Shown piece by piece: positions 15 through 61,261 of a DNA stretch of 64,000 nt; the first letter of the stretch is position 1, and each line of letters starts with the position of its first letter. Both the position numbers and the translations under genes were made by a program. The DNA comes from an uncultured Candidatus Saccharibacteria bacterium (GTDB taxonomy: Bacteria > Patescibacteriota > Dojkabacteria > J137): NCBI GenBank assembly GCA_965230975.1, contig OZ246402.1, forward strand, positions 444,667 through 508,666, read 5' to 3'. The notes under the pieces were generated by a model. It was not told the origin of the DNA. It made no database searches and saw only the letters and a program-made list of their open reading frames with translations.

Positions 15-1451
15 GTGGTTGAATTTAATCATGTAACAAAAATTTACGACGGTAATATTATTTCTGTAGATGATGTTAGTTTTAAAATAGATAAAGGTGA
101 GTTTGTTTTTTTGATTGGTCCATCCGGTAGTGGTAAAACTACAATCATAAAAACATTAATTAGAGATGAACTCCCTACAGAAGGAAAGATTTTTTTTGAT
201 GATGTAGATATTACTAAGATTAACAGAAGAAAGGTCTATAAATTAAGACGAGAGATTGGTGTAATATTTCAAGATTTTAAATTAGTTCCAGATAAAACTG
301 CATTTGAAAATGTAGCTTTCGCAATGGAAGCTGCGGGTAAAACAACCAAAGAGATTAAAGAAACCGTACCTTATGTTTTAGATATTGTAGGGCTTGCTAA
401 TAGAATGGATTCTTTCCCAAGACAATTATCTGGTGGTGAGCAACAAAGAGTTGCTATTGCAAGGGCTATTGCAAATAACCCAAAAATATTAATTGCAGAT
501 GAACCAACTGGCAACTTAGACCCGGCAAGCGCTTGGGATATTGTTCAAGTTTTAACAAAAATTAATAATTGGGGCACAACAGTAATTATGTCTACTCATG
601 GCACAGATATTGTTAACTCTTTAAATAAAAGGGTTATTCAAATGGAAAAAGGTAAAATTATTAGAGATGACAATAAAGGCCAGTACGAAATGATCAGTGT
701 TTTTGAAAATGGTGTTTTAGAATCTGAGAAAACAGACAAATCTGAAAAGAAAGAGAAAAAGAAGTCTAAAAAAACATACCAGGTAAAATTAGAAGATCCA
801 CAAGAAGTTATTACCCAAATAGATGAAGAGGTTCAGCCAAAAGGTAGATTTTTTGGAATATTTAATAGATTTAAAAAGAAACATGAATCTAACGAGCCAA
901 TTACAGAGATTTTAGATAAACCAGCCACAGAGCTATATACAGAAATAGAGAATCCAGAAATTGAAAAGTTAAAAGACAAGTCAGAAGAAATTGAAACTAG
1001 TTTACCGCAAACATCTGAAGATTTGACAGTTAAAGAAATGCTAGAAACTACTCCAACTTTGCCAGAACAAACAGAGAATTCAAATGAGCAATTAGAAAGT
1101 AAAGATGAAAAAAAAGACAAATCTCACAAAAAGGAAGAACAGTCTGAAATAAAGCAATCTGTGATAAAAGAATCAAATCAATCTGAAGAATCAATTATCC
1201 CTTCAGATAAAGATTTAACTTGGTCAGATGAACAGGTTGAATCTTTTTTAGAAACTTCAAAATCTATAAAAGTAGATTCCCTAGATTTGCCAAAGGCTGT
1301 AATTAAAGATTTAAAAGCAGCAGGTTATAAAGAGGTTAAAAGCATTATTGAAGCGGGTCCAAACAAATTAGCACAAAGTTTATTAATTGACCCAGAAGAG
1401 ATAGTAATGGTATCTAAGGCAATTAAAGAATTGCTATCAAAATCAAAATAA
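15..1451 (+). CDS. ftsE: Cell-division ABC ATPase FtsE fused to a ~250-aa K/E/S-rich low-complexity C-terminal extension ending in a helix-hairpin-helix-like segment
   Basis: N-terminal 220 aa have Walker A GPSGSGKTT, the ABC signature LSGGEQQRVAIARA and Walker B ILIADEPTGNLD, and are followed by ftsX. Residues ~225-478 are low complexity with a C-terminal LDLPKAVIKDLKAAGYKEV...IDPEEI motif. The GTG start lies 15 nt from the window edge. Confidence 0.85.
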   Translation: MVEFNHVTKIYDGNIISVDDVSFKIDKGEFVFLIGPSGSGKTTIIKTLIRDELPTEGKIFFDDVDITKINRRKVYKLRREIGVIFQDFKLVPDKTAFENVAFAMEAAGKTTKEIKETVPYVLDIVGLANRMDSFPRQLSGGEQQRVAIARAIANNPKILIADEPTGNLDPASAWDIVQVLTKINNWGTTVIMSTHGTDIVNSLNKRVIQMEKGKIIRDDNKGQYEMISVFENGVLESEKTDKSEKKEKKKSKKTYQVKLEDPQEVITQIDEEVQPKGRFFGIFNRFKKKHESNEPITEILDKPATELYTEIENPEIEKLKDKSEEIETSLPQTSEDLTVKEMLETTPTLPEQTENSNEQLESKDEKKDKSHKKEEQSEIKQSVIKESNQSEESIIPSDKDLTWSDEQVESFLETSKSIKVDSLDLPKAVIKDLKAAGYKEVKSIIEAGPNKLAQSLLIDPEEIVMVSKAIKELLSKSK

Positions 1452-1482: not shown

Positions 1483-2550
1483 ATGTTCACAAGAATTTTA
1501 AGTAACACTCGAAAACAAATTGCTAGAAGTGGCTGGGTAGGTTGGGCATCTGTAAGTGTAATGACTTTAGCATTCTTGGTCGCAATAATTTTTGGAGGGC
1601 TAGCTTATATTTCTAATTTGTATATTCAATTTATAGAAACAAAAAGCAATTTGCTTGTTTTTTTTGAAGAGGGAATGGATAGAGATATTATTGATAGACT
1701 AAGGGAAACCTGGAGGCAAAACCCTAGAGTTAAAGACATTGCATATACAACTGAAGAGCAAGCTTATATAGATTATAGCGATTATACATCTAGGGTTTTG
1801 CCCGAAACGTACGCTATTTTAAAAACTAAAGAAAATAAAGTTTTACCTTCAAGTTTAGATATTCAAATTTGGTCATTGGACGATATTGAAACTTTAAAAG
1901 CTGATATTCAAAAAGATATAGATAAAGAATTAGCTAATTTGAAAATCATTAAAAATGTAAGTAGTGAGCAACAAAGTACAGAAACCGTTTTACAAACAGA
2001 AGAATCAACTCCGGTTTCTTACGTTAAAGATGCATCAGAAGATGTAGTATATAAATATCAAACTGACCCTGCAAGGGCTCCAATAGATTTAAGGGTGGAT
2101 GATAAAAATTTAGATCAATTAAGAGAGGTGCTAACAGCACTTAGAGTTGCAGGGATTTTTGTAATAACTCTTTTGTTTATTGTAATATTCTTTTTCACAT
2201 TCATGACTGTAGAATTTAGGTTATACAATCAAATGGAAGAGATAGGCGTTATGCAATTAGTAGGTGGAAGCCTGTTCTTTATTAGGGCTCCTTATATTTT
2301 AGAAGGAGGATTTTATGGGATTGTTGGTTCCTTACTTGCCTCTACAATTATTGGTTCAATAATAATTGGAGTATTTGTTTTAGACCCAAATTCAGTTTTG
2401 GCAAAGTTCTTTTTTGAAAACTTTAGTAAATTGCCGTGGCCTTATATAACATCTTTAGGTTGGGTTGGTATAGTTGCCTTATTAGCTTTAATTGGTTTAC
2501 TGCTTGGTTGTGTTAGTAGTATGTTGTCTATAAAAAGATATATTAGATAA
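1483..2550 (+). CDS. ftsX: Cell-division permease FtsX
   Basis: Immediately downstream of ftsE. One N-terminal TM, a large extracytoplasmic domain and three C-terminal TM helices (FtsX topology). Confidence 0.8.
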   Translation: MFTRILSNTRKQIARSGWVGWASVSVMTLAFLVAIIFGGLAYISNLYIQFIETKSNLLVFFEEGMDRDIIDRLRETWRQNPRVKDIAYTTEEQAYIDYSDYTSRVLPETYAILKTKENKVLPSSLDIQIWSLDDIETLKADIQKDIDKELANLKIIKNVSSEQQSTETVLQTEESTPVSYVKDASEDVVYKYQTDPARAPIDLRVDDKNLDQLREVLTALRVAGIFVITLLFIVIFFFTFMTVEFRLYNQMEEIGVMQLVGGSLFFIRAPYILEGGFYGIVGSLLASTIIGSIIIGVFVLDPNSVLAKFFFENFSKLPWPYITSLGWVGIVALLALIGLLLGCVSSMLSIKRYIR

Positions 2551-6972: not shown

Positions 6973-7398
6973 ATGTTAGTTGGTGAATATAGCACTCAAG
7001 TAGGTGAAAAGAATCGCGTAGCTATTCCTAAAAAGCTAAGAGATCAATTAAACGGACAAATAATCATAACCAGAGGTTATGAAAGATGTTTAATAATCGT
7101 AGATACCAAAAGGTGGGACGCCTTGATATCAGAAGTGAATTCAAGGCCTTTGCTATCTTTAAATGTAAGAGATACAAAAAGATACCTAATTGGTGGTGCC
7201 GTGGAGGTAGAATACGATTCTCAAGGTAGATTTGTATTACCCGAATCTCTAAAAGATTTTGGGAGCATAGAAGATAAAGTAGTTTTCTTAGGCGTAGGAG
7301 AATGGATTGAGCTTTGGAATGAAGATAGATGGAAAACAAAATTAGAAGATTTAAGTAAAAATGTTAGTGACATTGCAGAAAGGCTTGTACAAAAATGA
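6973..7398 (+). CDS. mraZ: Transcriptional regulator MraZ
   Basis: 141 aa with a duplicated MraZ fold. N-terminal GEKNRVAIPKKLRDQL matches the MraZ DxxxR signature. First gene of the dcw cluster. Confidence 0.85.
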   Translation: MLVGEYSTQVGEKNRVAIPKKLRDQLNGQIIITRGYERCLIIVDTKRWDALISEVNSRPLLSLNVRDTKRYLIGGAVEVEYDSQGRFVLPESLKDFGSIEDKVVFLGVGEWIELWNEDRWKTKLEDLSKNVSDIAERLVQK

Positions 7399-8309
7399 GA
7401 ATACACAAAAGCGTACTGAAACAAGAGGTGATAGATAATTTGCTCTTTAAAAAAGATGGTGTTTATGTAGACTGCACACTGGGTAGTGGTGGTCATTCCC
7501 TAGAAATACTAAATCGAATACAATCCGGTACTTTAATCTGTATAGACTCAGATGCGCAATCTATAAGTGACTTTGCAACAAAACTTAAAGAACTTGAATA
7601 TAAATTTGAGAATGGCATTTACCATAAATCAAATAACAAAGTAGTTTTGGTACAAAATAACTTTTCAAATTTAAACCAAATTTTAAGTGAACAAGGTTAT
7701 AACAAAGTAGATGCAATATTTGCAGATTTAGGGTGGTCTACGGATCAACTTAAAGGAATAGAAGGCCTTTCTTATGAAAATATAGAAGGGAATTTAGACA
7801 TGAGATTAAGTGATACCCTAGCTGTCAAAGCGAGCGATTTGTTAAATGGATTAGGTGCAAAGGCATTGAGCACTATGTTTCTTAAATATGCAGATATTTA
7901 CGGCAAAGATAATGCATTTTTAGTAGAAAGAATTTTAGCAGAAAGAAAAGTAAAACCGTTTAATAAAGTGAAAGACTTACTGCCAATTTTAGATAAAACA
8001 GCTCGTTCGGCCAACGCAAAAAGCTTTTATGCAAAAGTTTTTCAGGCATTAAGAATCGCAGTTAATAGCGAATATAAAAATCTTGAAGATCTTTTGAATG
8101 CAAGTTTGCAAAATCTAAATACGGGTGGTCGAATGTTAGTAATAACATTTCATTCTGGTGAATCTAGTATTGTAGAGGAATTTATTAAAAAAAATAACTT
8201 AGACTCACTATTTAAGAAAAATGGTGAAATTTATTTGGTGCCATCTGTAGAAGAACTAACAGAAAATTTAAGTGCACGAAGTGCAAAACTTTATGGTTTT
8301 ACAAAATGA
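7395..8309 (+). CDS. rsmH: 16S rRNA (cytosine1402-N4)-methyltransferase RsmH (MraW)
   Basis: GVYVDCTLGSGGHS SAM-binding motif. 4-bp overlap with mraZ. Confidence 0.9.
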   Translation: MRIHKSVLKQEVIDNLLFKKDGVYVDCTLGSGGHSLEILNRIQSGTLICIDSDAQSISDFATKLKELEYKFENGIYHKSNNKVVLVQNNFSNLNQILSEQGYNKVDAIFADLGWSTDQLKGIEGLSYENIEGNLDMRLSDTLAVKASDLLNGLGAKALSTMFLKYADIYGKDNAFLVERILAERKVKPFNKVKDLLPILDKTARSANAKSFYAKVFQALRIAVNSEYKNLEDLLNASLQNLNTGGRMLVITFHSGESSIVEEFIKKNNLDSLFKKNGEIYLVPSVEELTENLSARSAKLYGFTK

Positions 8310-8641
8310 ACAATAATAATTTTTTACAAAAACAAAATAGCATAAGCTTTAAAAGGCTTAACAGCAGATTACTCGCTTTAAATGCTATTTTAGTTCTAGC
8401 CTTTTTTGGGATGCAGGTATTTGTAACATCTTTTGTAGGTACAAAAACACAAGAAATTGATTTTACAAGAAATGCGAAAACAGAAATAAGGCAAGAAAAC
8501 AGTTTTCTAGAAGCAGAAATCGCAAAAGAAAAATCTGTCTCACAAGCACAAGATGTTATTACAAAATACAATCTTCAAGAAAAGGAGGTCAACTTTTTGC
8601 AAGAAGCTAACTTGCAAGGTGTTGCGTTAAAATATCCTTAA
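8306..8641 (+). CDS. ftsL: FtsL/DivIC-like cell-division protein (single TM plus coiled coil)
   Basis: 111 aa, one TM followed by a coiled coil. Sits between rsmH and ftsI with overlapping stops and starts. Confidence 0.5.
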   Translation: MNNNNFLQKQNSISFKRLNSRLLALNAILVLAFFGMQVFVTSFVGTKTQEIDFTRNAKTEIRQENSFLEAEIAKEKSVSQAQDVITKYNLQEKEVNFLQEANLQGVALKYP

Positions 8642-10434
8642 TGAAAAAGAAAAATTTAGAATCTACAATTTCTAAAAGAATAAAAGTTATTCACTTGTTT
8701 TTTACAATATTTGCAGTTGTTGCAATAGTTTTTGTTTTTAGATGGACAGTTGTTCAAGGTGCAAAATTTGATTTACTTGCAAAAAATAGATTTCAAAACC
8801 AAACATTAACCTCCATGAGAGGATCTATTTTTGCAAAAGATGGCACTACCCTAGCTTATACAGAACCCAGAGTTAGCATAAGTGTTTGGCTTAAAAACTT
8901 ATATGATTATGAACAATGGCATACACAAACAGTAGATGAGCTTGTGACAAAAGTAGCCCCTATAATTAGTTTAACGAAAGAAGAGATTTATAAAAAGTTT
9001 GATGATGCAAAAGCAAGTGTAAATGGTAGTGATAAGGTTACAGTAATTCTTGCTACAGACTTAAATTTAGAGCAGTGGAATCAAATTAAGTCATTAGACA
9101 GAGACAATGCTCCAACATACCCATTACTTGGAATTCAAAGCAAAGTTACTCCAAAAAGAATATACCCGGAAGGTAGACTAGCCTCACACTTGCTAGGACT
9201 AACAAATACATATAAAGAGGAATTAATTGGAGAGGCGGGGATTGAAAGAAGATTTAGCGATGTCTTAAAACCTGTAGATGGTTTAATTTCTCAAGAGACA
9301 GATGCGAGGGGGTTAACCATAACATCTACTTTATTACAAACAATAGAGCCAAAAAACGGTAGTGACGTTTACATAACTATAAATAAAAAATTACAAGCTG
9401 TTGTAGAAGAACAATTAAAGATTGGAGTAGAAAAATATGATGCAAAATCCGGAACAATAATAATTCAAGATCCAAAAACTGGCGAAGTTATGGCTTTGGC
9501 AAATTACCCTGACTATGACCCAAATACCCGTTCAGAGACAGACATAAATGCATACGGAAATTTGGCCATAACTTCGCCATACGAAACAGGTTCTATTGGT
9601 AAAATATTAACAATCGCTACAGCTATAGATAAAGAATTAATAACACCCGATACCATAATTATGCCCGAGGGTCACCAGGGTTGTGAAAAAATTCATAACG
9701 ATTTAAACCCAGTTTGTACTTGGGATAGAAAACCTCAGCCTCCAATGCCTGCTAGGGATTGCTTCCAAAAATCAGATAACCTTTGTTTTTATCATATGGC
9801 TACTTTAATAAATAGGAAAGATTTTTATGACCATTTGATTGATTTTGGAGTTGGTAGCGAGAGTGGTATAGACTTAAAAGAAGAATCAATTGGATATCTG
9901 AAATCGTATGATAGTTGGACGGTTGGAGATGTTTCTGCATTCTCTTATGGTCACGGTTATTTAGTAAATGCAGTTCAAGCTATTAATGAAACTTCTACTA
10001 TTGCAAATTACGGTGTAAGAATGCAACCTTTGATAGTAGATAAAATTGTAAGCGCCGAAGGAGAAATTACTGAGTATAACCCTATAGTAAAGTCTAGGGC
10101 TGTAACAAAAGAAACTGCTGAAACTGTTGTAGATATGATGAGATACAACTTTAGTAAAAGTATTCCAGAGTGGTACTATGGGTACATGAAAAACTACGAC
10201 ATTGGTGTTAAATCAGGAACAGCTTTAATAGCAAATTCAACAGGGTATTCTAATAATATTAACGCTACCTTTGTTGGTTTTGATGCTTCAGAAGAAAGAA
10301 GTTTTGTAATGCTTATTAGACTAGAAGATCCAAAAATCCCATCTTATGATAGATTGGCTTTCTATAATGTAAGACCTATGTGGTTAGATACATTTGGAGC
10401 AATTAGAGATATTATTGGTGTACCAACTAAATAA
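8641..10434 (+). CDS. ftsI: Penicillin-binding protein / peptidoglycan D,D-transpeptidase (FtsI/PBP2 class)
   Basis: N-terminal TM, dimerisation domain, and transpeptidase motifs SIGK (SxxK), SDN (SxN) and KSG (KTG-like). Confidence 0.85.
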   Translation: MKKKNLESTISKRIKVIHLFFTIFAVVAIVFVFRWTVVQGAKFDLLAKNRFQNQTLTSMRGSIFAKDGTTLAYTEPRVSISVWLKNLYDYEQWHTQTVDELVTKVAPIISLTKEEIYKKFDDAKASVNGSDKVTVILATDLNLEQWNQIKSLDRDNAPTYPLLGIQSKVTPKRIYPEGRLASHLLGLTNTYKEELIGEAGIERRFSDVLKPVDGLISQETDARGLTITSTLLQTIEPKNGSDVYITINKKLQAVVEEQLKIGVEKYDAKSGTIIIQDPKTGEVMALANYPDYDPNTRSETDINAYGNLAITSPYETGSIGKILTIATAIDKELITPDTIIMPEGHQGCEKIHNDLNPVCTWDRKPQPPMPARDCFQKSDNLCFYHMATLINRKDFYDHLIDFGVGSESGIDLKEESIGYLKSYDSWTVGDVSAFSYGHGYLVNAVQAINETSTIANYGVRMQPLIVDKIVSAEGEITEYNPIVKSRAVTKETAETVVDMMRYNFSKSIPEWYYGYMKNYDIGVKSGTALIANSTGYSNNINATFVGFDASEERSFVMLIRLEDPKIPSYDRLAFYNVRPMWLDTFGAIRDIIGVPTK

Positions 10435-13765: not shown

Positions 13766-15013
13766 TTAATACTTAAACTTCTCTTCTTCTGGGTTGTCTT
13801 GATAAACAGTTACAACCTCAGCTTTTACAATACTTTCCTCTTCTTCTTTTAGCTTTTGATTTAAAGATTCCTCTTCTTGTACTTTCTTTTCATTTTTTCT
13901 TTTTAAGAAATTTACAATAGCAAATATTACAAATATTGCAATTAAGCCTATTGCAAATGTGCTTACATCATCTCTAATATTACTAAAGTAAATAGCGATA
14001 GAGCATAGTACCAGCATTATTGCGACCTCTATAATTAATACGGTTTTTCTAGAATATCCTGCACCAATAAGTCTATGGTGCAAATGGGAATTGTCTCCAA
14101 TTTGCAGTATTTCCCATGGTCTTTTTAATAATTGTGGGTTTGCTTTAATTCTCATGTACACCACAAAAAGTCCGTCTATAATAGGCATGCCTAATAAAAT
14201 TAAGGTAGCTGTCCACCTTGTGCCAGCTAAAATTGCAAAGATTGCAAGTAGGTACCCATTAATGTAGTCTCCAACTCCATAATAAATTTTTGCCGGATTA
14301 TAGTTGTAAGGGAACACACCTTGAATGGAACCTATGTGTATTGCAATAATTACTGCTAAGGGTATGTTTCCTGCAGCAATAACAAATAGAAGCATTGTTA
14401 AAGATGCTATAGTGCTAACCGATCCAGTAAGGCCATCTACACCTCCAACCCAGTTAATTACATTCATTAAACCTAAAATCCAAATTAAGGTAATCAAATC
14501 TGCTGGAAATATAAAATTATAGACATAACCTAAAATATCTATAGTTGCTGAAAATAAATTGAAAGATAAAGTATGTCCCAATAAATTAATTTCTGTAATA
14601 GATGTTCCGGTAAAAATTACAGCCAGAGCTGCTAAAGCTTGCCCTAGCAATTGAACTTTACCATCTAGTTCAAAAATATCGTCTAAAATCCCTACAATCA
14701 AAATAATAATCGCTCCTAAAATAACTCCTTTGGGTAAAAATGCTAGGTTACCTGTTACTAATAATCCAACAACTATGCCAATAAACATGGCTACCCCTCC
14801 AAGTCTAGGTACTGCAGTTTTGTTTCCAAGTCTGGTATTAACGCTTCTTTCAGTTTTTGATCGTAAACTTTGTGGCAAGTCTATTGCCCCAACTGCCCAA
14901 GCTAATCTACCTATTAATGGTGTTAGTAAGAAGGAAACTATAAATGCTATAAGTCCAGCTACTAATAAAGAAGTTAAATTTTGTATTAAGTACTGATTTT
15001 GAAAAATATCCAT
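13766..15013 (-). CDS. Glycosyltransferase family 4 polyprenyl-phosphate sugar-1-phosphate transferase (WecA/MraY family) with a K/E-rich C-terminal tail
   Basis: Polytopic membrane protein with the DD motif (ILDDIFELDG). The C-terminal ~50 aa is a charged low-complexity tail. Confidence 0.75.
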   Translation of the reverse strand: MDIFQNQYLIQNLTSLLVAGLIAFIVSFLLTPLIGRLAWAVGAIDLPQSLRSKTERSVNTRLGNKTAVPRLGGVAMFIGIVVGLLVTGNLAFLPKGVILGAIIILIVGILDDIFELDGKVQLLGQALAALAVIFTGTSITEINLLGHTLSFNLFSATIDILGYVYNFIFPADLITLIWILGLMNVINWVGGVDGLTGSVSTIASLTMLLFVIAAGNIPLAVIIAIHIGSIQGVFPYNYNPAKIYYGVGDYINGYLLAIFAILAGTRWTATLILLGMPIIDGLFVVYMRIKANPQLLKRPWEILQIGDNSHLHHRLIGAGYSRKTVLIIEVAIMLVLCSIAIYFSNIRDDVSTFAIGLIAIFVIFAIVNFLKRKNEKKVQEEESLNQKLKEEEESIVKAEVVTVYQDNPEEEKFKY

Positions 15014-20670: not shown

Positions 20671-22521
20671 CTATTCCGAAGCTTGTAGCCACTCCTCACT
20701 TTTCTCTTCTAATTCTTGATTAATCTCTCGTATTTGAAGTGCAATTTTACTCAGTTCTTCCATACTAATATTAATCGTGTTCAACTTTTCGGTTAATTCT
20801 TTCTTTTTTCTTTCTAACAGATTAATTCTCTTTAATAACTCGCGTTCTTTTTCAGAATCTTTAGTAGATTTAACTGGTTGATTAGCTTTTTGAGGTAAAT
20901 CATCTGACCCGGAAATAATACTGCCATCATTAGTATCATCTTCATCTTCCGCAACATCTCTATAGGTTGAATAATTCCCTGGAAAGTCTTTAATAACTGC
21001 ATTTCCTTTAAAGACGAATAGATGATCTACAATCTTATCCATAAAATATCTATCATGAGAAATGATAATCAAACAACCTTTAAACTCTTTTAAAAATTCC
21101 TCTAAAACATTCAAAGTCAAAATATCAAAGTCATTCGTTGGCTCATCCAAAATCAAAAAATTGGGATTCGCCATCAAAATCTTTAACAAGTTAAGCCTTT
21201 TCTTTTCACCACCACTTAATTTAGCAACTAAGTTTTGCTGAACAATTGGAGTAAACAAAAAACGTTCAAGCATTTTTGAAGCAGTAACTTCTGATCCATC
21301 AGAAAGCTTAATAAAGTTAGCAATTGCTTTTACAGAATCAATAACCTTTTCGTTATTATTAAATTCAAGCCCAGATTGAGAATAGTAACCAAAACTTACT
21401 GATTCTCCTTTAACAATTTTGCCAGAATCGGCTTGTTCTTTATCCATTATTAAGTTCAAGAATGTGGTTTTGCCAACACCATTCTTGCCAATAATTCCAA
21501 CTTTTTCACCTTTATTAAAACTATAAGTAAATTTATCTAAAATCTTTTTACTACTAAAAGACTTAGTTAAATTATGAATTTCTAAAATCTTTCCACCCAT
21601 ATATTTTGTTTGCACATCAAGTTTTACCTTTTCTGTTACATTTTTTTGTTTAACACTATTTTTTAATATGTTGTAATCTCTAACTCTTGCGTAACCCTTA
21701 CTTGTTCTACCTCTTGGTTGTTTTTTTACCCATTCAAGTTCTTTTTTTAACAAAGCGTTTGTTCTATCTATATTTGTATTTTCATTTTGCTCACGTTCTG
21801 CTTTCTTTTCTAGAAAATACGAATAGTTACCTTGATATGTAAAGACTTTGCCGTTAACCAATTCTATAATTTCGTTACAAACTCTTTCTAAAAAGTATCT
21901 GTCATGAGTAACCATTAAAAGGGTAATATCGTTTTCTTGCAAATATTCTTCAAGCCAATCAATCATTTCTAAGTCTAGATGGTTCGTAGGTTCATCCATT
22001 ACAAGAAGGTCTGGTGTGTCTATTAATATTTTTGCTAAGGCAACTCTTTTCTTTTGCCCTCCCGAAAATGTGGAGATTTTTTCGTTTAAGTTGTGCAGGT
22101 TTAAGTTTGTTAATACCTCTTTGATTCTTTCTTCGTATTCCCATGCGTTGGTGTTTGTCATTGCTTCAAAGGCTTCTTGCATTTTATCAGAGTCCTCGGG
22201 GGTTAATAGGCTTTGTTCGTATAGTTTTACGGCTTTGATTATTGGTGAATCACTAGAAAAAATCTCTTGATCTACTGTTTTGTTCAAATCAAGTTGTGGT
22301 TCTTGTTCTAAGAATGCTGTTTTTACCCCTTTTTGTTTTGTTATTCTGCCACTGTCGTATGTTTCTGTTCCGGCTAATATTTTTAGTAGGGTAGATTTAC
22401 CTGTTCCGTTTTGAGCGACTAGTGCAATTTTGTCACCTTTATCTACAGAAAAAGAGATATTATTTAAAATAACTCTATCGTTAAAGGTTTTTATTAGGTT
22501 TTCTACTAAAATGTAACTCAT
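20671..22521 (-). CDS. ABC-F family ATPase (tandem ABC domains, Uup/EttA-like translation factor) with a C-terminal coiled coil
   Basis: Two Walker A motifs (AQNGTGKST and GKNGVGKTT), two LSGG signatures, no TM domains, and a coiled-coil tail. Confidence 0.9.
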   Translation of the reverse strand: MSYILVENLIKTFNDRVILNNISFSVDKGDKIALVAQNGTGKSTLLKILAGTETYDSGRITKQKGVKTAFLEQEPQLDLNKTVDQEIFSSDSPIIKAVKLYEQSLLTPEDSDKMQEAFEAMTNTNAWEYEERIKEVLTNLNLHNLNEKISTFSGGQKKRVALAKILIDTPDLLVMDEPTNHLDLEMIDWLEEYLQENDITLLMVTHDRYFLERVCNEIIELVNGKVFTYQGNYSYFLEKKAEREQNENTNIDRTNALLKKELEWVKKQPRGRTSKGYARVRDYNILKNSVKQKNVTEKVKLDVQTKYMGGKILEIHNLTKSFSSKKILDKFTYSFNKGEKVGIIGKNGVGKTTFLNLIMDKEQADSGKIVKGESVSFGYYSQSGLEFNNNEKVIDSVKAIANFIKLSDGSEVTASKMLERFLFTPIVQQNLVAKLSGGEKKRLNLLKILMANPNFLILDEPTNDFDILTLNVLEEFLKEFKGCLIIISHDRYFMDKIVDHLFVFKGNAVIKDFPGNYSTYRDVAEDEDDTNDGSIISGSDDLPQKANQPVKSTKDSEKERELLKRINLLERKKKELTEKLNTINISMEELSKIALQIREINQELEEKSEEWLQASE

Positions 22522-59329: not shown

Positions 59330-61261
59330 TTACACAACTTCACCTTCTTCTGGTTCGTTTTTCTTTTCTTCAGTTGATTCTGTAGTGTTGCTAGAATCTT
59401 CTGAAGCTGTACCGGCACTTTCAGTACCAGCTGCAGGTTGTTGTTGCTCGTAAACCTTTGACCCTGCTTCTTGAAGTTTGTTCATTAATTCGTCAGATTC
59501 TTTTTTAACTTCCTCTGCATTAAAGTCTTCAACTTTAATTAAAGCTTCAACTTTTTCAATTTGAGCTTTAATGCCAGATTTCATATCTTCTGGAATTTTA
59601 TCTGCTGTATCTTTATCTTCTATTAATTTAGTAGCTTGGTAAACTAAAGTTTCAGCTTCGTTTTTTGTTTTAAGCTTAGACAAAATTTCGTCATCCTTGC
59701 TTCTATTTTCTTCTGCCTCTTTAACTCTTCTATCAATCTCTTCCTGGTCTAGGTTTGTAGAAGCAGTTATAGTAATTTGCTGCTCTTTGCCTGTACCTAA
59801 ATCTTTGGCTTTAACATTCAAAATACCATTTGCATCTAATTTAAATGTAATGGCAAACCTTGGAACGCTTCTTGGTGCAGGAGCAATTCCATCTAACCTA
59901 AATGTGCCAAGTAGTTTGTTATCTTTAGCTAAAGGTCTCTCTCCTTGTAAAACTTTTACATCAATTGCAGGTTGATTATCTACTGCTGTAGTAAAGTTTT
60001 CTTCGGTTTTTTCTGTAGGTATAGTTGTATTTCTTGGAATCAAGATATGCATTTCACCTGCATTTACCTCTAAACCTAAAGATAATGGAGTAACGTCTAA
60101 TAATGTAATGTCTTGAACGTTGCTATCTCCAGCCAAAACAGCTGCTTGTAAAGATGCTCCAACTGCAACAACTTCGTCTGGGTTAACAGATAAATTTGGT
60201 TTTTTGCCAAAGTATTCTTCTACTTTTCTTAAAACTAAAGGCATTCTTGTCATACCACCAACCATAATTACTTCATGAATATCAGATTTTGAAAGCCCGG
60301 CATCTTTAATAGCTTTATCAACAGAATTGAAAGTTCTTTCTACCAAAGACATAACCATCTTTTCAAGATCGGCTCTGGTTAAAGTCATTCTGAAATGTTT
60401 TGGTCCTTTTGCGTCTGCTGTAATGTATGGCAAATTTACATCTGTACTTTCAGAACTTGAAAGTGTGATTTTTGCTTTTTCTGCAGCTTCTTTAAGTCTT
60501 TGTAATGCAGCTGGGTCTTCTTTTAAGTCAATACCTTGCTCTTGTTTAAATACAGTTACAAAGTGGTCAATTAAAACTTGGTCAAAGTCGTCTCCACCAA
60601 GGTGGGTATCACCAGATGTAGATCTTACTTCGTAAACATTATCTCCAATGTCTAAAACAGATACATCAAATGTTCCTCCACCAAGGTCGTAAACGATAAT
60701 TGTTTCATCTTGTTTTTTATCTAGACCGTAAGCAATAGCAGCTGCTGTAGGTTCGTTAATAATTCTTTGAACATTAAACCCTGCAATTTTACCTGCGTTT
60801 TTTGTTGCTTGTCTTTGAGAATCATCAAAGTAAGCTGGTACTGTAATTACTGCGTCTGTAATTTTTTCTCCTAAATATGCCTCTGCATCTGCTTTGATTT
60901 TTGCTAAAACTTTTGCGGATATAACTTCAGGTGATACCCATTCTTCTCCAAATTGGATTTCAACTCCACCTTTGTCAGATTTTCTTAAGTTAAATGGTAA
61001 AAGTTTTATATCTTTTTGAACTTCTGCATCGTCAAACCTTCTACCAATAAGCCTTTTGATGGAGTAGAATGTTTGTTCAGGGTTTGTTACCATTTGATTT
61101 TTTGCAGTTATTCCAACAATTTCTGATTTGTTGTCTAATGCTACAACAGAAGGGATTAATCTTGACCCCTCTTTGCTTGTTATTACTTCAGGTTTTCCTG
61201 CTTGTACAAAGGCTACAACTGAGTTTGTAGTTCCTAAGTCTATTCCGACTGCTTTTGCCAT
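59330..61261 (-). CDS. dnaK: Molecular chaperone DnaK (Hsp70)
   Basis: IDLGTTNS, DLGGGTFD and VIMVGGMTRMP signatures. Full length 643 aa with a C-terminal acidic tail. Confidence 0.95.
   Translation of the reverse strand: MAKAVGIDLGTTNSVVAFVQAGKPEVITSKEGSRLIPSVVALDNKSEIVGITAKNQMVTNPEQTFYSIKRLIGRRFDDAEVQKDIKLLPFNLRKSDKGGVEIQFGEEWVSPEVISAKVLAKIKADAEAYLGEKITDAVITVPAYFDDSQRQATKNAGKIAGFNVQRIINEPTAAAIAYGLDKKQDETIIVYDLGGGTFDVSVLDIGDNVYEVRSTSGDTHLGGDDFDQVLIDHFVTVFKQEQGIDLKEDPAALQRLKEAAEKAKITLSSSESTDVNLPYITADAKGPKHFRMTLTRADLEKMVMSLVERTFNSVDKAIKDAGLSKSDIHEVIMVGGMTRMPLVLRKVEEYFGKKPNLSVNPDEVVAVGASLQAAVLAGDSNVQDITLLDVTPLSLGLEVNAGEMHILIPRNTTIPTEKTEENFTTAVDNQPAIDVKVLQGERPLAKDNKLLGTFRLDGIAPAPRSVPRFAITFKLDANGILNVKAKDLGTGKEQQITITASTNLDQEEIDRRVKEAEENRSKDDEILSKLKTKNEAETLVYQATKLIEDKDTADKIPEDMKSGIKAQIEKVEALIKVEDFNAEEVKKESDELMNKLQEAGSKVYEQQQPAAGTESAGTASEDSSNTTESTEEKKNEPEEGEVV

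What the first reader, a model, noticed from the sequence alone, without database searches (positions are those of the whole stretch)
15..1451. FtsE carries a ~250-aa low-complexity K/E/S-rich C-terminal extension ending in a helix-hairpin-helix-like motif
Canonical FtsE is about 220-230 aa. Here the complete ABC domain is followed by a long, charged, presumably disordered linker (KSEKKEKKKSKK..., EKKDKSHKKEEQSE...). It ends in a ~55-aa globular-looking segment (LDLPKAVIKDLKAAGYKEVKSIIEAGPNKLAQSLLIDPEEIVMVSKAIKEL) resembling HhH/alpha-CTD-type nucleic-acid or protein-interaction modules. The WecA-like glycosyltransferase (13766-15013) has a similar charged tail. These extensions on divisome and envelope enzymes could be lineage-specific tethering or regulatory adaptations.
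Basis: seen in the sequence. Interest (0 to 1): 0.5.

Follow-up and report, generated by a model that had tools for sequence, protein, structure and literature searches.

The report
FtsE with tethered alpha-CTD-like tail
In this Dojkabacteria (CPR) genome, and in all 120 closest relatives listed, the cell-division ATPase FtsE carries a long tail (about 250 residues here) made of a membrane-helix-like motif, an acidic disordered spacer and a small RNA-polymerase-alpha-CTD-like domain, which is probably a built-in tether linking FtsEX to a cytoplasmic partner.

Summary

It is not a frameshift. The identical protein is called on four contigs from at least three sources. All 120 closest homologues listed are extended (267-554 aa), and 105 of the 121 sequences analysed carry the module in frame. 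Other CPR and Firmicutes FtsE end at about 224-231 aa.

The tail is not plain low complexity. It contains a conserved basic/β-like island (250-259) and a cationic amphipathic, MinD-MTS-like motif (276-289). A fast-evolving acidic spacer then leads to the module.

The alpha-CTD DNA-contact residues are replaced, three of them by conserved acidic residues. I therefore favour a protein-docking role over DNA binding, but the partner is unknown.

I found no publication describing this architecture. It is a new variant of a known kind and of moderate interest. The WecA-like tail is only about 45-50 aa and has no module.

The parts
15..1451 (+). ftsE, complete ORF (478 aa plus stop), extended form
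   Evidence: The identical protein (P0002) is called on 4 contigs from at least three sources.
15..686 (+). FtsE ABC ATPase core (residues 1-224), with Walker A GPSGSGKT, signature LSGGEQQR, Walker B ILIADEPT and H-loop H195
   Evidence: TIGR02673 at 272.6 bits, above the 264.85 cut-off, residues 1-214. Pfam ABC_tran 3.4e-36. pLDDT about 95. These columns are invariant in A2.
693..740 (+). Low-confidence helix following the ABC core (residues 227-242)
   Evidence: The AF2 full-length model has helix H227-242 at pLDDT about 58-64. F230 and E231 are conserved in the family.
762..791 (+). Conserved proximal island KSKKTYQVKL (residues 250-259; family consensus K.K..FKV.L)
   Evidence: Column conservation in A2. 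A similar RVKLxLT motif ends the tails of one sub-clade.
840..881 (+). Cationic amphipathic motif KGRFFGIFNRFKKK (residues 276-289), a MinD-MTS-like candidate membrane-binding helix
   Evidence: It has the highest helical hydrophobic moment in the linker: 0.67, against 0.30 +/- 0.12 for the linker as a whole. Its net charge is +4 (11-aa window) to +5 (with flanks). A strict regex finds the motif in 75 of 120 relatives, at median position about 279. The motif HMM picks only the MinD MTS among E. coli MinD, FtsA and FtsZ, and does so weakly.
900..914 (+). Small conserved hydrophobic island ITEIL (residues 296-300; consensus I...L)
882..1226 (+). Distal acidic disordered spacer (residues 290-404; net charge -20 over residues 293-421)
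   Evidence: pLDDT is below 50. The spacer is acidic in 91% of family members, with median length 101 aa. Identity is 13-43% between relatives whose modules are 35-86% identical.
1227..1445 (+). C-terminal globular module (residues 405-477). The (HhH)2 alpha-CTD/RAD51-N-like core is residues 420-476 (nt 1272-1442).
1483..2550 (+). ftsX (355 aa), the operon partner, with a short (about 17-20 aa) cytoplasmic N-terminus
   Evidence: Pfam FtsX_ECD at 28.7 bits, above the 23.5 cut-off; FtsX 23.4 bits, just under its 25.5 cut-off; NCBIfam FtsX models score well below their cut-offs, so this FtsX is divergent. ftsX follows ftsE in every relative examined. N-termini.

Best explanation
This is a genuine FtsE, the ATPase of the FtsEX division complex. 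In Dojkabacteria and close relatives it has acquired a modular C-terminal tail. The tail consists of a short conserved basic island, then a cationic amphipathic helix-like motif that probably lies on the inner face of the membrane. A fast-evolving acidic disordered spacer of roughly 100-130 residues follows, and the tail ends in a small alpha-CTD/RAD51-N-type (HhH)2 domain. I propose that the tail works as a flexible tether. The amphipathic motif keeps its base at the membrane. The acidic spacer is repelled from the membrane and extends over ten nanometres or more into the cytoplasm. The terminal domain docks onto a cytoplasmic protein partner, most plausibly a Z-ring component such as FtsZ or FtsA. 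That would recruit or couple FtsEX, and through FtsX the extracellular wall hydrolase, to the division machinery. SHOWN: the ORF is real and conserved; the FtsE identity; the ftsX linkage; the predicted disorder; the fold of the module; the loss of the alpha-CTD DNA-contact residues; the family-wide charge and conservation pattern. INFERRED: membrane binding by the motif; protein rather than DNA binding by the module; the identity of the partner.
For: The gene is a real FtsE with ftsX directly downstream. The tail is conserved in frame: all 120 best homologues are extended, 105 of the 121 sequences analysed carry the module, and the identical protein occurs on 4 contigs. The predicted architecture is disordered linker plus folded module. 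The fold is alpha-CTD/RAD51C-N. Mapping onto E. coli RpoA replaces the DNA-contact residues. R265 aligns with A428, which is unconserved in the family. C269 aligns with D432 (D in 31 of 53). G296, K298 and S299 align with D459, E461 and E462 (D 39/53, E 32/53, E 42/53). Mean module net charge is -4. The most conserved surface loop, G448-P449-E/D450, aligns with the alpha-CTD '287 determinant', which is a protein-contact surface in RNAP (plus established knowledge). The amphipathic cationic motif is conserved in position and character and resembles the E. coli MinD membrane-targeting sequence. The spacer conserves length and acidity but not sequence, which is typical of functional tethers. FtsX in this family lacks the roughly 50-aa N-terminal extension that links Gram-negative FtsX to FtsA, so another cytoplasmic link is plausible (review PMC11627006).
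Against: No partner was identified, and no interaction was tested or modelled. The window holds no ftsZ or ftsA, and I could not survey the whole genome. AlphaFold does not predict the amphipathic motif as a helix in isolation (pLDDT below 50). Its match to the MinD MTS is weak (1.0 bit, E 0.045 over three proteins), and it is internal rather than terminal, unlike the classic MTSs. The first HhH hairpin keeps a glycine and flanking lysines, so weak DNA binding is not excluded. The window's own module has net charge +1, not negative. Sixteen of the 121 sequences analysed lack the module. Some are fragments, but one sub-clade has a different ending (…RPLVV…), so the module is not indispensable to every extended FtsE.
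Confidence: 0.45

Rival explanations
1. The terminal (HhH)2 module binds DNA non-specifically, so the tail tethers FtsEX or the division site to the nucleoid. This would be a Noc-, FtsK- or ComEA-like coupling of chromosome and septum, with the amphipathic motif supplying the membrane contact.
For: The fold belongs to a superfamily dominated by DNA binders (alpha-CTD, RAD51 N-terminal domain, Pol X/Y HhH domains, UvrC, DisA). The first hairpin keeps A-G-Y and is flanked by frequent lysines at 427, 431, 434 and 439. Lysine-rich stretches precede the module in many relatives. The window's own module is slightly basic, at +1.
Against: All six E. coli alpha-CTD DNA-contact positions differ, and four (C269, G296, K298, S299) are replaced by family-conserved acidic residues. 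The second hairpin has no glycine (IDPEE). Module net charge averages -4 across the family, and the adjoining spacer is strongly acidic. The best sequence-profile match in the PDB is the RAD51C N-terminal domain, which shares the acidic second hairpin.
Confidence: 0.15
2. The tail is a cis- or trans-acting regulator of FtsE itself. The module, or the conserved islands at 250-259 and 276-289, would dock back onto the ABC dimer to gate ATP hydrolysis. Alternatively the module would self-associate, as SAM domains do, to cluster FtsEX complexes. This would be analogous in principle to the C-terminal regulatory domains of MalK or MetN.
Against: About 180 disordered residues separate the module from the core, unlike the rigidly attached MalK and MetN domains. 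The fold is alpha-CTD-like, not one of the known ABC regulatory folds. The single-chain AF2 model gives no sign of a confident docked state, with pTM 0.52 and the linker below 50. However, PAE was not available to me.
Confidence: 0.15
3. The extension is an artefact: a sequencing or assembly frameshift, or read-through fusing FtsE to a separate downstream gene.
For: In single metagenome contigs the tail does appear as a separate ORF (P0122, P0150).
Against: The identical 478-aa protein is called on four contigs from at least three sources, including a 1.19-Mb contig. All 120 best homologues are extended, with the module in frame despite linkers of 87-273 aa. P0150 is a contig-edge call, with the FtsE end in frame immediately upstream. 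P0122 results from one in-frame stop in a contig otherwise identical to the intact P0067. The chance of a 254-codon open frame is 7e-10 or less. No promoter or terminator signal above background occurs inside the tail.
Confidence: 0.01

Closest known systems
Canonical FtsE of FtsEX (E. coli, P. aeruginosa, M. tuberculosis, S. pneumoniae)
   Same: The ABC ATPase core is the same and passes the FtsE equivalog model. The operon with ftsX is the same. One relative has an M23 (EnvC-like) peptidase next to ftsX.
   Different: Canonical FtsE is compact, about 220-230 aa. Non-Dojkabacteria FtsE are 224-231 aa, with one of 253 aa, and the review PMC11627006 describes a highly conserved structure. Here about 254 extra residues are added, with conserved motifs and a folded domain.
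RNA polymerase alpha subunit C-terminal domain (Pfam PF03118), a flexibly tethered (HhH)2 domain
   Different: The module is attached to FtsE, not RpoA. The linker is about 180 aa rather than about 15-20 aa. The DNA-binding '265 determinant' is not conserved, and the second hairpin is acidic. The window's copy is below the Pfam threshold when scanned alone.
RAD51C / RAD51 / RadA N-terminal (HhH)2 domain
   Same: It is the best sequence-profile hit in the PDB (RAD51C-N, E 5e-7) and a close fold match. RAD51C shares the acidic, glycine-less second hairpin (LEICKEEA against LIDPEEIV). In both cases the domain is fused to a P-loop ATPase.
   Different: The RAD51 domain is N-terminal, joined by a short linker, and functions in recombinase filaments. 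There is no relationship between the ATPase cores beyond the P-loop fold.
Membrane tethers of the divisome: ZipA (anchor, charged/PQ linker, FtsZ-binding domain) and the MinD/FtsA amphipathic membrane-targeting sequences
   Same: The logic of the architecture is the same: membrane contact, then a long disordered spacer, then a terminal docking domain. The motif is cationic and amphipathic and resembles the E. coli MinD MTS KKGFLKRLFGG.
   Different: There is no sequence or fold homology to ZipA. The motif is internal, not terminal. Neither membrane binding nor FtsZ binding has been demonstrated. The anchor proper is FtsX.
ABC ATPases with C-terminal regulatory domains (MalK, MetN, ModC)
   Same: An extra C-terminal domain is added to an ABC nucleotide-binding subunit.
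   Different: Those domains are rigidly attached, dimerise under the NBDs and have different folds (my own knowledge). Here there is a long disordered linker and an alpha-CTD-like fold.

Membership tests
FtsE (NCBIfam TIGR02673, equivalog) | Whole-protein score above the curated cut-off, with full-length coverage of the model | tested here: met
   272.6 bits against a cut-off of 264.85. Residues 1-214 align to model positions 1-214 of 214.
FtsE (NCBIfam TIGR02673, equivalog) | Intact ABC motifs (Walker A, Q-loop, signature LSGGQ, Walker B, H-loop) | tested here: met
   GPSGSGKT, LSGGEQQR, ILIADEPT and H195 are visible in the sequence and invariant across 65 family members.
FtsE (NCBIfam TIGR02673, equivalog) | Encoded immediately upstream of ftsX | tested here: met
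   ftsX is at 1483-2550, with FtsX_ECD above its Pfam cut-off. The arrangement is the same in relatives. The FtsX NCBIfam scores are far below their cut-offs, so this FtsX is divergent.
FtsE (NCBIfam TIGR02673, equivalog) | Single-domain protein of about 220-230 aa | tested here: not met
   478 aa here. The family ranges over 267-554 aa, median 446. This does not remove it from FtsE, but makes it an architectural variant.
RNA_pol_A_CTD (Pfam PF03118) | Score above the Pfam gathering threshold | tested here: inconclusive
   The window copy scores 13.1 bits against 23.8 (E 0.079), so it is not met when scanned alone. 37 of 53 family members match at E<=0.1, best 6.8e-9, and three relatives carry a precomputed PF03118 hit.
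RNA_pol_A_CTD (Pfam PF03118) | Compact (HhH)2 alpha-CTD fold | tested here: met
RNA_pol_A_CTD (Pfam PF03118) | DNA-binding '265 determinant' (E. coli R265, N268, C269, G296, K298, S299) | tested here: not met
   The HMM alignment to E. coli RpoA pairs these positions with A428, K431, D432, D459, E461 and E462. The acidic replacements are conserved across the family. The identity of the determinant residues is from established literature (my own knowledge).
RNA_pol_A_CTD (Pfam PF03118) | C-terminal domain of the RNAP alpha subunit | tested here: not met
   The domain is fused to FtsE. No rpoA and no second copy of the module occur in the window.
Helix-hairpin-helix DNA-binding motif (G-h-G hairpin) | Glycine-containing hairpins in both HhH motifs | tested here: not met
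   The first hairpin is A-G-Y (G437 in 47 of 53). The second hairpin is I-D-P-E-E, without glycine.
MinD/FtsA-type amphipathic membrane-targeting sequence | Short cationic segment with a high helical hydrophobic moment | tested here: met
   RFFGIFNRFKK has muH 0.67 against a linker mean of 0.30 +/- 0.12, and net charge +4. The top-moment window lies at 262-312 in 62% of relatives. Mean motif charge is +4.6.
MinD/FtsA-type amphipathic membrane-targeting sequence | Located at the extreme C-terminus; binds membranes | not testable with these tools
   The location is internal (residues 276-289 of 478), so the positional criterion is not met. Membrane binding needs an experiment. Sequence similarity to the E. 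coli MinD MTS is weak.

The most novel reading that the evidence does not exclude
The FtsE tail is a ZipA/FtsA-like Z-ring tether built into the FtsEX mechanotransducer. A membrane-hugging amphipathic helix, an acidic entropic spacer and an alpha-CTD-derived docking domain would together capture FtsZ, FtsA or another cytoskeletal or nucleoid component. In these ultra-small CPR cells the ATP-driven FtsEX cycle would then be wired directly to the cytoplasmic division ring, replacing adaptor proteins or the FtsX N-terminal link used by other bacteria. It would also be the first example of an RNA-polymerase alpha-CTD-type domain co-opted into the divisome.
Probability: 0.25. Interest if true: 0.65.

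Novelty: new variant of a known kind. Interest (0 to 1): 0.45.

Why it matters
FtsE is among the most length-conserved divisome proteins. How FtsEX is coupled to the cytoplasmic ring is only partly understood, and the known links differ between lineages: the FtsE core binds the FtsZ tail, and the FtsX N-terminus binds FtsA in Gram-negatives. A lineage-wide, modular tail on FtsE points to a different solution in a CPR class that cannot yet be cultivated. It offers concrete, separable parts (a 14-aa motif and a 60-70-aa domain) that can be tested in vitro or heterologously. It also extends the known uses of the alpha-CTD fold beyond transcription, and it shows that current annotation ('FtsE' or 'hypothetical') hides half of the protein.

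Tried and rejected
1. I searched the 5.8-billion-cluster database with the last 86 aa, and later with the module profile. Only two short fragments came back. The word-index method evidently misses the module inside long FtsE proteins, so the full-length query was the productive one.

2. I scanned the window's module alone against Pfam. Only sub-threshold RAD51D_N and RNA_pol_A_CTD hits appeared, so a family profile and a fold search were needed.

3. I looked for a second copy of the module, such as rpoA, in the window. None was found, so I could not compare the module with the organism's own alpha-CTD.

4. I looked for ftsZ or ftsA nearby. None is in the window. The candidate ORFs turned out to be NusA, ABC-F, DnaK, AsnRS/AspRS-type synthetases, a MacB-like permease and a polyprenyl synthetase. 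mraZ-rsmH-ftsL?-ftsI lies 5.5 kb downstream.

5. I considered that stand-alone tail ORFs (P0150, P0122) might be separate genes. I rejected this: they are a contig-edge artefact and an in-frame nonsense codon.

6. I considered that the linker might be a tandem-repeat expansion, and rejected it.

7. I looked for an internal promoter or terminator that would separate the module. Nothing rose above the shuffled background.

9. Cluster look-ups aimed at organism names returned almost none.

10. Five literature searches found no paper describing an extended FtsE or FtsE fused to an HhH or alpha-CTD domain.

Full report
OBSERVATION. The ORF at 15..1451 (+) is present as described: GTG start, 478 codons, TAA stop. 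An in-frame TAA lies 6 nt upstream of the GTG, and the FtsE model aligns from residue 1, so the start is right. Residues 1-214 match NCBIfam TIGR02673 (FtsE, equivalog) over the whole model at 272.6 bits, above the curated cut-off of 264.85. All other ABC families fall far below their own cut-offs. The next ORF (1483..2550) is a divergent FtsX: Pfam FtsX_ECD is above threshold, while the FtsX permease domain is just below. The window has 31% GC. The two other frames of the tail DNA contain 25 and 32 stops, and the chance of a 254-codon open frame is 7e-10 or less. The tail (225-420) is E 19%, K 15%, S 11%. It is the longest polar low-complexity stretch of any ORF in the window. It is not a DNA tandem repeat.

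NOT AN ARTEFACT. The identical 478-aa protein (P0002) is called on four contigs from at least three sources: one NCBI contig of 1.19 Mb and Logan assemblies of two SRA runs. All 120 best homologues in a 5.8-billion-cluster database are extended (267-554 aa, median 446). Two GTDB species representatives labelled Candidatus Dojkabacteria have 411- and 512-aa FtsE with the same tail plan. FtsE from Saccharibacteria, Parcubacteria-group lineages, Firmicutes and others in the same search end at 224-231 aa, with one of 253 aa. A local HMM finds the C-terminal module in frame in 105 of the 121 sequences, despite linkers of 87-273 aa. Two apparent stand-alone tail ORFs were checked. P0150 is a contig-edge call in which the FtsE end (…RDDNKGQYE) reads in frame directly upstream. 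P0122 comes from a single in-frame stop in a contig otherwise identical to the intact P0067.

ANATOMY OF THE TAIL. AlphaFold2 on a 65-sequence family alignment gives three regions. Residues 1-222 have pLDDT about 95. Most of 245-400 is below 50. Residues 405-477 score 77-96. Column conservation shows that the tail is not featureless. It has an island K.K..FKV.L (window KSKKTYQVKL, residues 250-259), a hydrophobic-basic motif (KGRFFGIFNRFKKK, 276-289) and a small I…L island (296-300). About 110 unconserved residues follow, and then the module.

The 276-289 motif has the highest helical hydrophobic moment in the linker: 0.67, against 0.30 +/- 0.12 for the linker overall. Its net charge is +4 to +5. 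A strict pattern finds an equivalent motif in 75 of 120 relatives, at a median position of about 279 and with mean charge +4.6. Variants such as KRGLFSKLFGRK and KGGFFTKLFGKKK resemble the E. coli MinD membrane-targeting sequence (EEKKGFLKRLFGG, read from the genome). A motif HMM picks only that segment among E. coli MinD, FtsA and FtsZ. The score is weak (1.0 bit), so this is a lead, not a demonstration.

The distal spacer is acidic in 91% of members (−20 in the window). It evolves fast, at 13-43% identity, where the module is 35-86% identical and the ABC core 83-97%. It therefore conserves composition and approximate length, not sequence.

Foldseek agrees. At sequence level the window copy is sub-threshold for Pfam (RNA_pol_A_CTD E 0.079, RAD51D_N E 0.086). 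However, 37 of 53 family members hit RNA_pol_A_CTD at E<=0.1 (best 6.8e-9). The family profile hits RAD51C-N (5e-7) and about twenty RpoA alpha-CTDs (from 8e-6) in the PDB. A profile search of 1.84 billion representatives gives only 558 hits at E<=1e-3. The top non-FtsE hits are proteins with 4-13 tandem canonical alpha-CTD repeats, which score by summation and keep the LSVR..N and G.K features. The FtsE module is thus a divergent, single-copy member of the alpha-CTD/(HhH)2 superfamily.

DNA OR PROTEIN? I aligned E. coli RpoA (read from NC_000913.3) to the module HMM. The DNA-contact residues map as follows, where the identity of those residues is established knowledge:
- R265 aligns with A428. 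The family has K15, E9, S6 and Q6 here, so the position is unconserved.
- N268 aligns with K431.
- C269 aligns with D432 (D in 31 of 53).
- G296 aligns with D459 (D 39).
- K298 aligns with E461 (E 32, D 9).
- S299 aligns with E462 (E 42, D 9).

The second hairpin, IDPEE, has no glycine and is the most conserved sequence feature of the module. Module net charge averages −4 across the family, although it is +1 in the window's copy. The conserved G-P-E loop aligns with the alpha-CTD 287 determinant, which is a protein-contact surface. These points favour protein docking over alpha-CTD-style DNA binding. They do not exclude weak DNA contact through the lysine-flanked first hairpin.

CONTEXT. ftsE is followed directly by ftsX in every relative examined. 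In one locus an M23 (EnvC-like) peptidase follows ftsX. FtsX here has only about 17-20 cytoplasmic residues before TM1. It therefore lacks the roughly 50-residue N-terminal extension through which Gram-negative FtsX binds FtsA (review PMC11627006). The same review notes that known FtsE structures are compact and highly conserved, and that the E. coli FtsE core engages the FtsZ C-terminal tail. The window holds mraZ-rsmH-(ftsL?)-ftsI 5.5 kb downstream, but no ftsZ or ftsA. No promoter- or terminator-like signal above background lies inside the tail.

MECHANISM (inferred). I propose that the tail is a tether with three working parts. A cationic amphipathic segment lies on the membrane next to FtsX. 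An acidic disordered spacer is repelled from the anionic membrane and reaches into the cytoplasm; about 110-130 disordered residues correspond to roughly 10 nm rms and several tens of nm contour length, by my own estimate from polymer scaling. A terminal alpha-CTD-like docking domain binds a cytoplasmic protein, most plausibly a Z-ring component. This would couple or recruit FtsEX, and through it wall hydrolysis, to the ring. I give the mechanism a confidence of about 0.45. The rivals are a DNA/nucleoid tether (0.15), a cis- or trans-regulatory or self-association module for FtsE (0.15) and an artefact (0.01 or less). The remainder is left unassigned.

THE WecA REMARK. The Glycos_transf_4 (MraY/WecA-like) ORF 13766-15013 (−) has only a K/E tail of about 45-50 aa, with no folded module. 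Its relative in L086 has a similar tail and shares a terminal …V.T.Y….EKF.Y ending. The parallel with FtsE is therefore loose.

NOVELTY. Sources annotate these proteins as 'cell division ATP-binding protein FtsE' or 'hypothetical'. Five full-text literature searches found nothing on an extended FtsE or on FtsE fused to an HhH or alpha-CTD domain. The components (FtsE, IDR tethers, amphipathic helices, the alpha-CTD fold) are all known, but the combination on FtsE is not. I rate it a new variant of a known kind, with interest about 0.45.

LIMITS. No interaction was modelled or measured. I could not survey the rest of the genome for ftsA, ftsZ, sepF or minD, or for the organism's own rpoA. The taxonomic breadth rests on a few source labels: Dojkabacteria for L001, L002, P0077 and P0099, and one 'Doudnabacteria' label for P0080. 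PAE for the full-length model was not available.

Noticed in passing
L081:8175-9944 (immediately upstream of window position 1; 57-nt gap to ftsE): A 589-aa protein has an N-terminal signal/anchor and a C-terminal TM segment. It carries a transglutaminase-like Cys…His…Asp signature (EYCYY, SPHTWCEFY, IADPW) and has no Pfam hit on record. It could be an extracellular enzyme working with FtsEX. It is not conserved upstream of ftsE in the three other relatives examined.
   Followed up: partly
relatives P0080, P0093, P0100, P0107, P0113, P0118 and others: A sub-clade of extended FtsE carries a further 25-93 residues after the module, ending in a conserved basic motif [KR]VKL[DNS]LT[AG]KK. This resembles the proximal FKVxL island (window residues 255-259) and may be a repeated short linear motif.
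   Followed up: no
relatives P0071, P0078, P0084, P0085, P0110, P0112, P0120; L086:8001-8987: Another sub-clade (307-336 aa) keeps the FF..RK motif but lacks the alpha-CTD-like module. These proteins end with the conserved AFEMN[DE]E … RPL[VI]V motifs instead, and ftsX still follows directly.
   Followed up: partly
P0123, P0124, P0128-P0131, P0137-P0139: Metagenomic proteins of 340-3200 aa consist of 4-13 tandem canonical RNA_pol_A_CTD repeats. Two of them also contain a Sigma70 region 4 domain. Their function is unknown, and they were the top non-FtsE hits of the module profile.
   Followed up: partly
window 13766-15013 (-): The MraY/WecA-like glycosyltransferase has a K/E-rich C-terminal tail of about 45-50 aa. 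Its last residues (VVTVYQDNPEEEKFKY) are conserved in a relative (VVVNTIYNEEDDDEKFVY), suggesting a terminal short linear motif.
   Followed up: partly
window 20671-22521 (-) and 59330-61261 (-): An ABC-F protein (616 aa) has long polar low-complexity stretches within residues 227-588. DnaK (643 aa) has polar stretches within its C-terminal 150 residues, about 120 aa in total. Long polar segments therefore recur in this genome, though FtsE has the longest.
   Followed up: no
window 6973-10434 (+): There is a partial dcw cluster of mraZ, rsmH, a 111-aa ORF in the ftsL position, and ftsI (PBP_dimer plus Transpeptidase). It is followed by a rhodanese gene rather than by mur or fts genes.
   Followed up: no
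window 1483-2550 (+): FtsX is divergent, scoring about 104 bits against NCBIfam FtsX cut-offs of 225-255. It has an enlarged extracellular domain with a polar insert (…SSEQQSTETVLQTEESTPVSYVKDASEDV…).
   Followed up: no
L088:797-2131: One JGI metagenome contig carries an FtsE with a single in-frame stop (E to stop) in the linker. This splits it into 310-aa and 125-aa ORFs that are otherwise identical to an intact 444-aa relative. It is either a sequencing error or a natural nonsense variant.
   Followed up: yes
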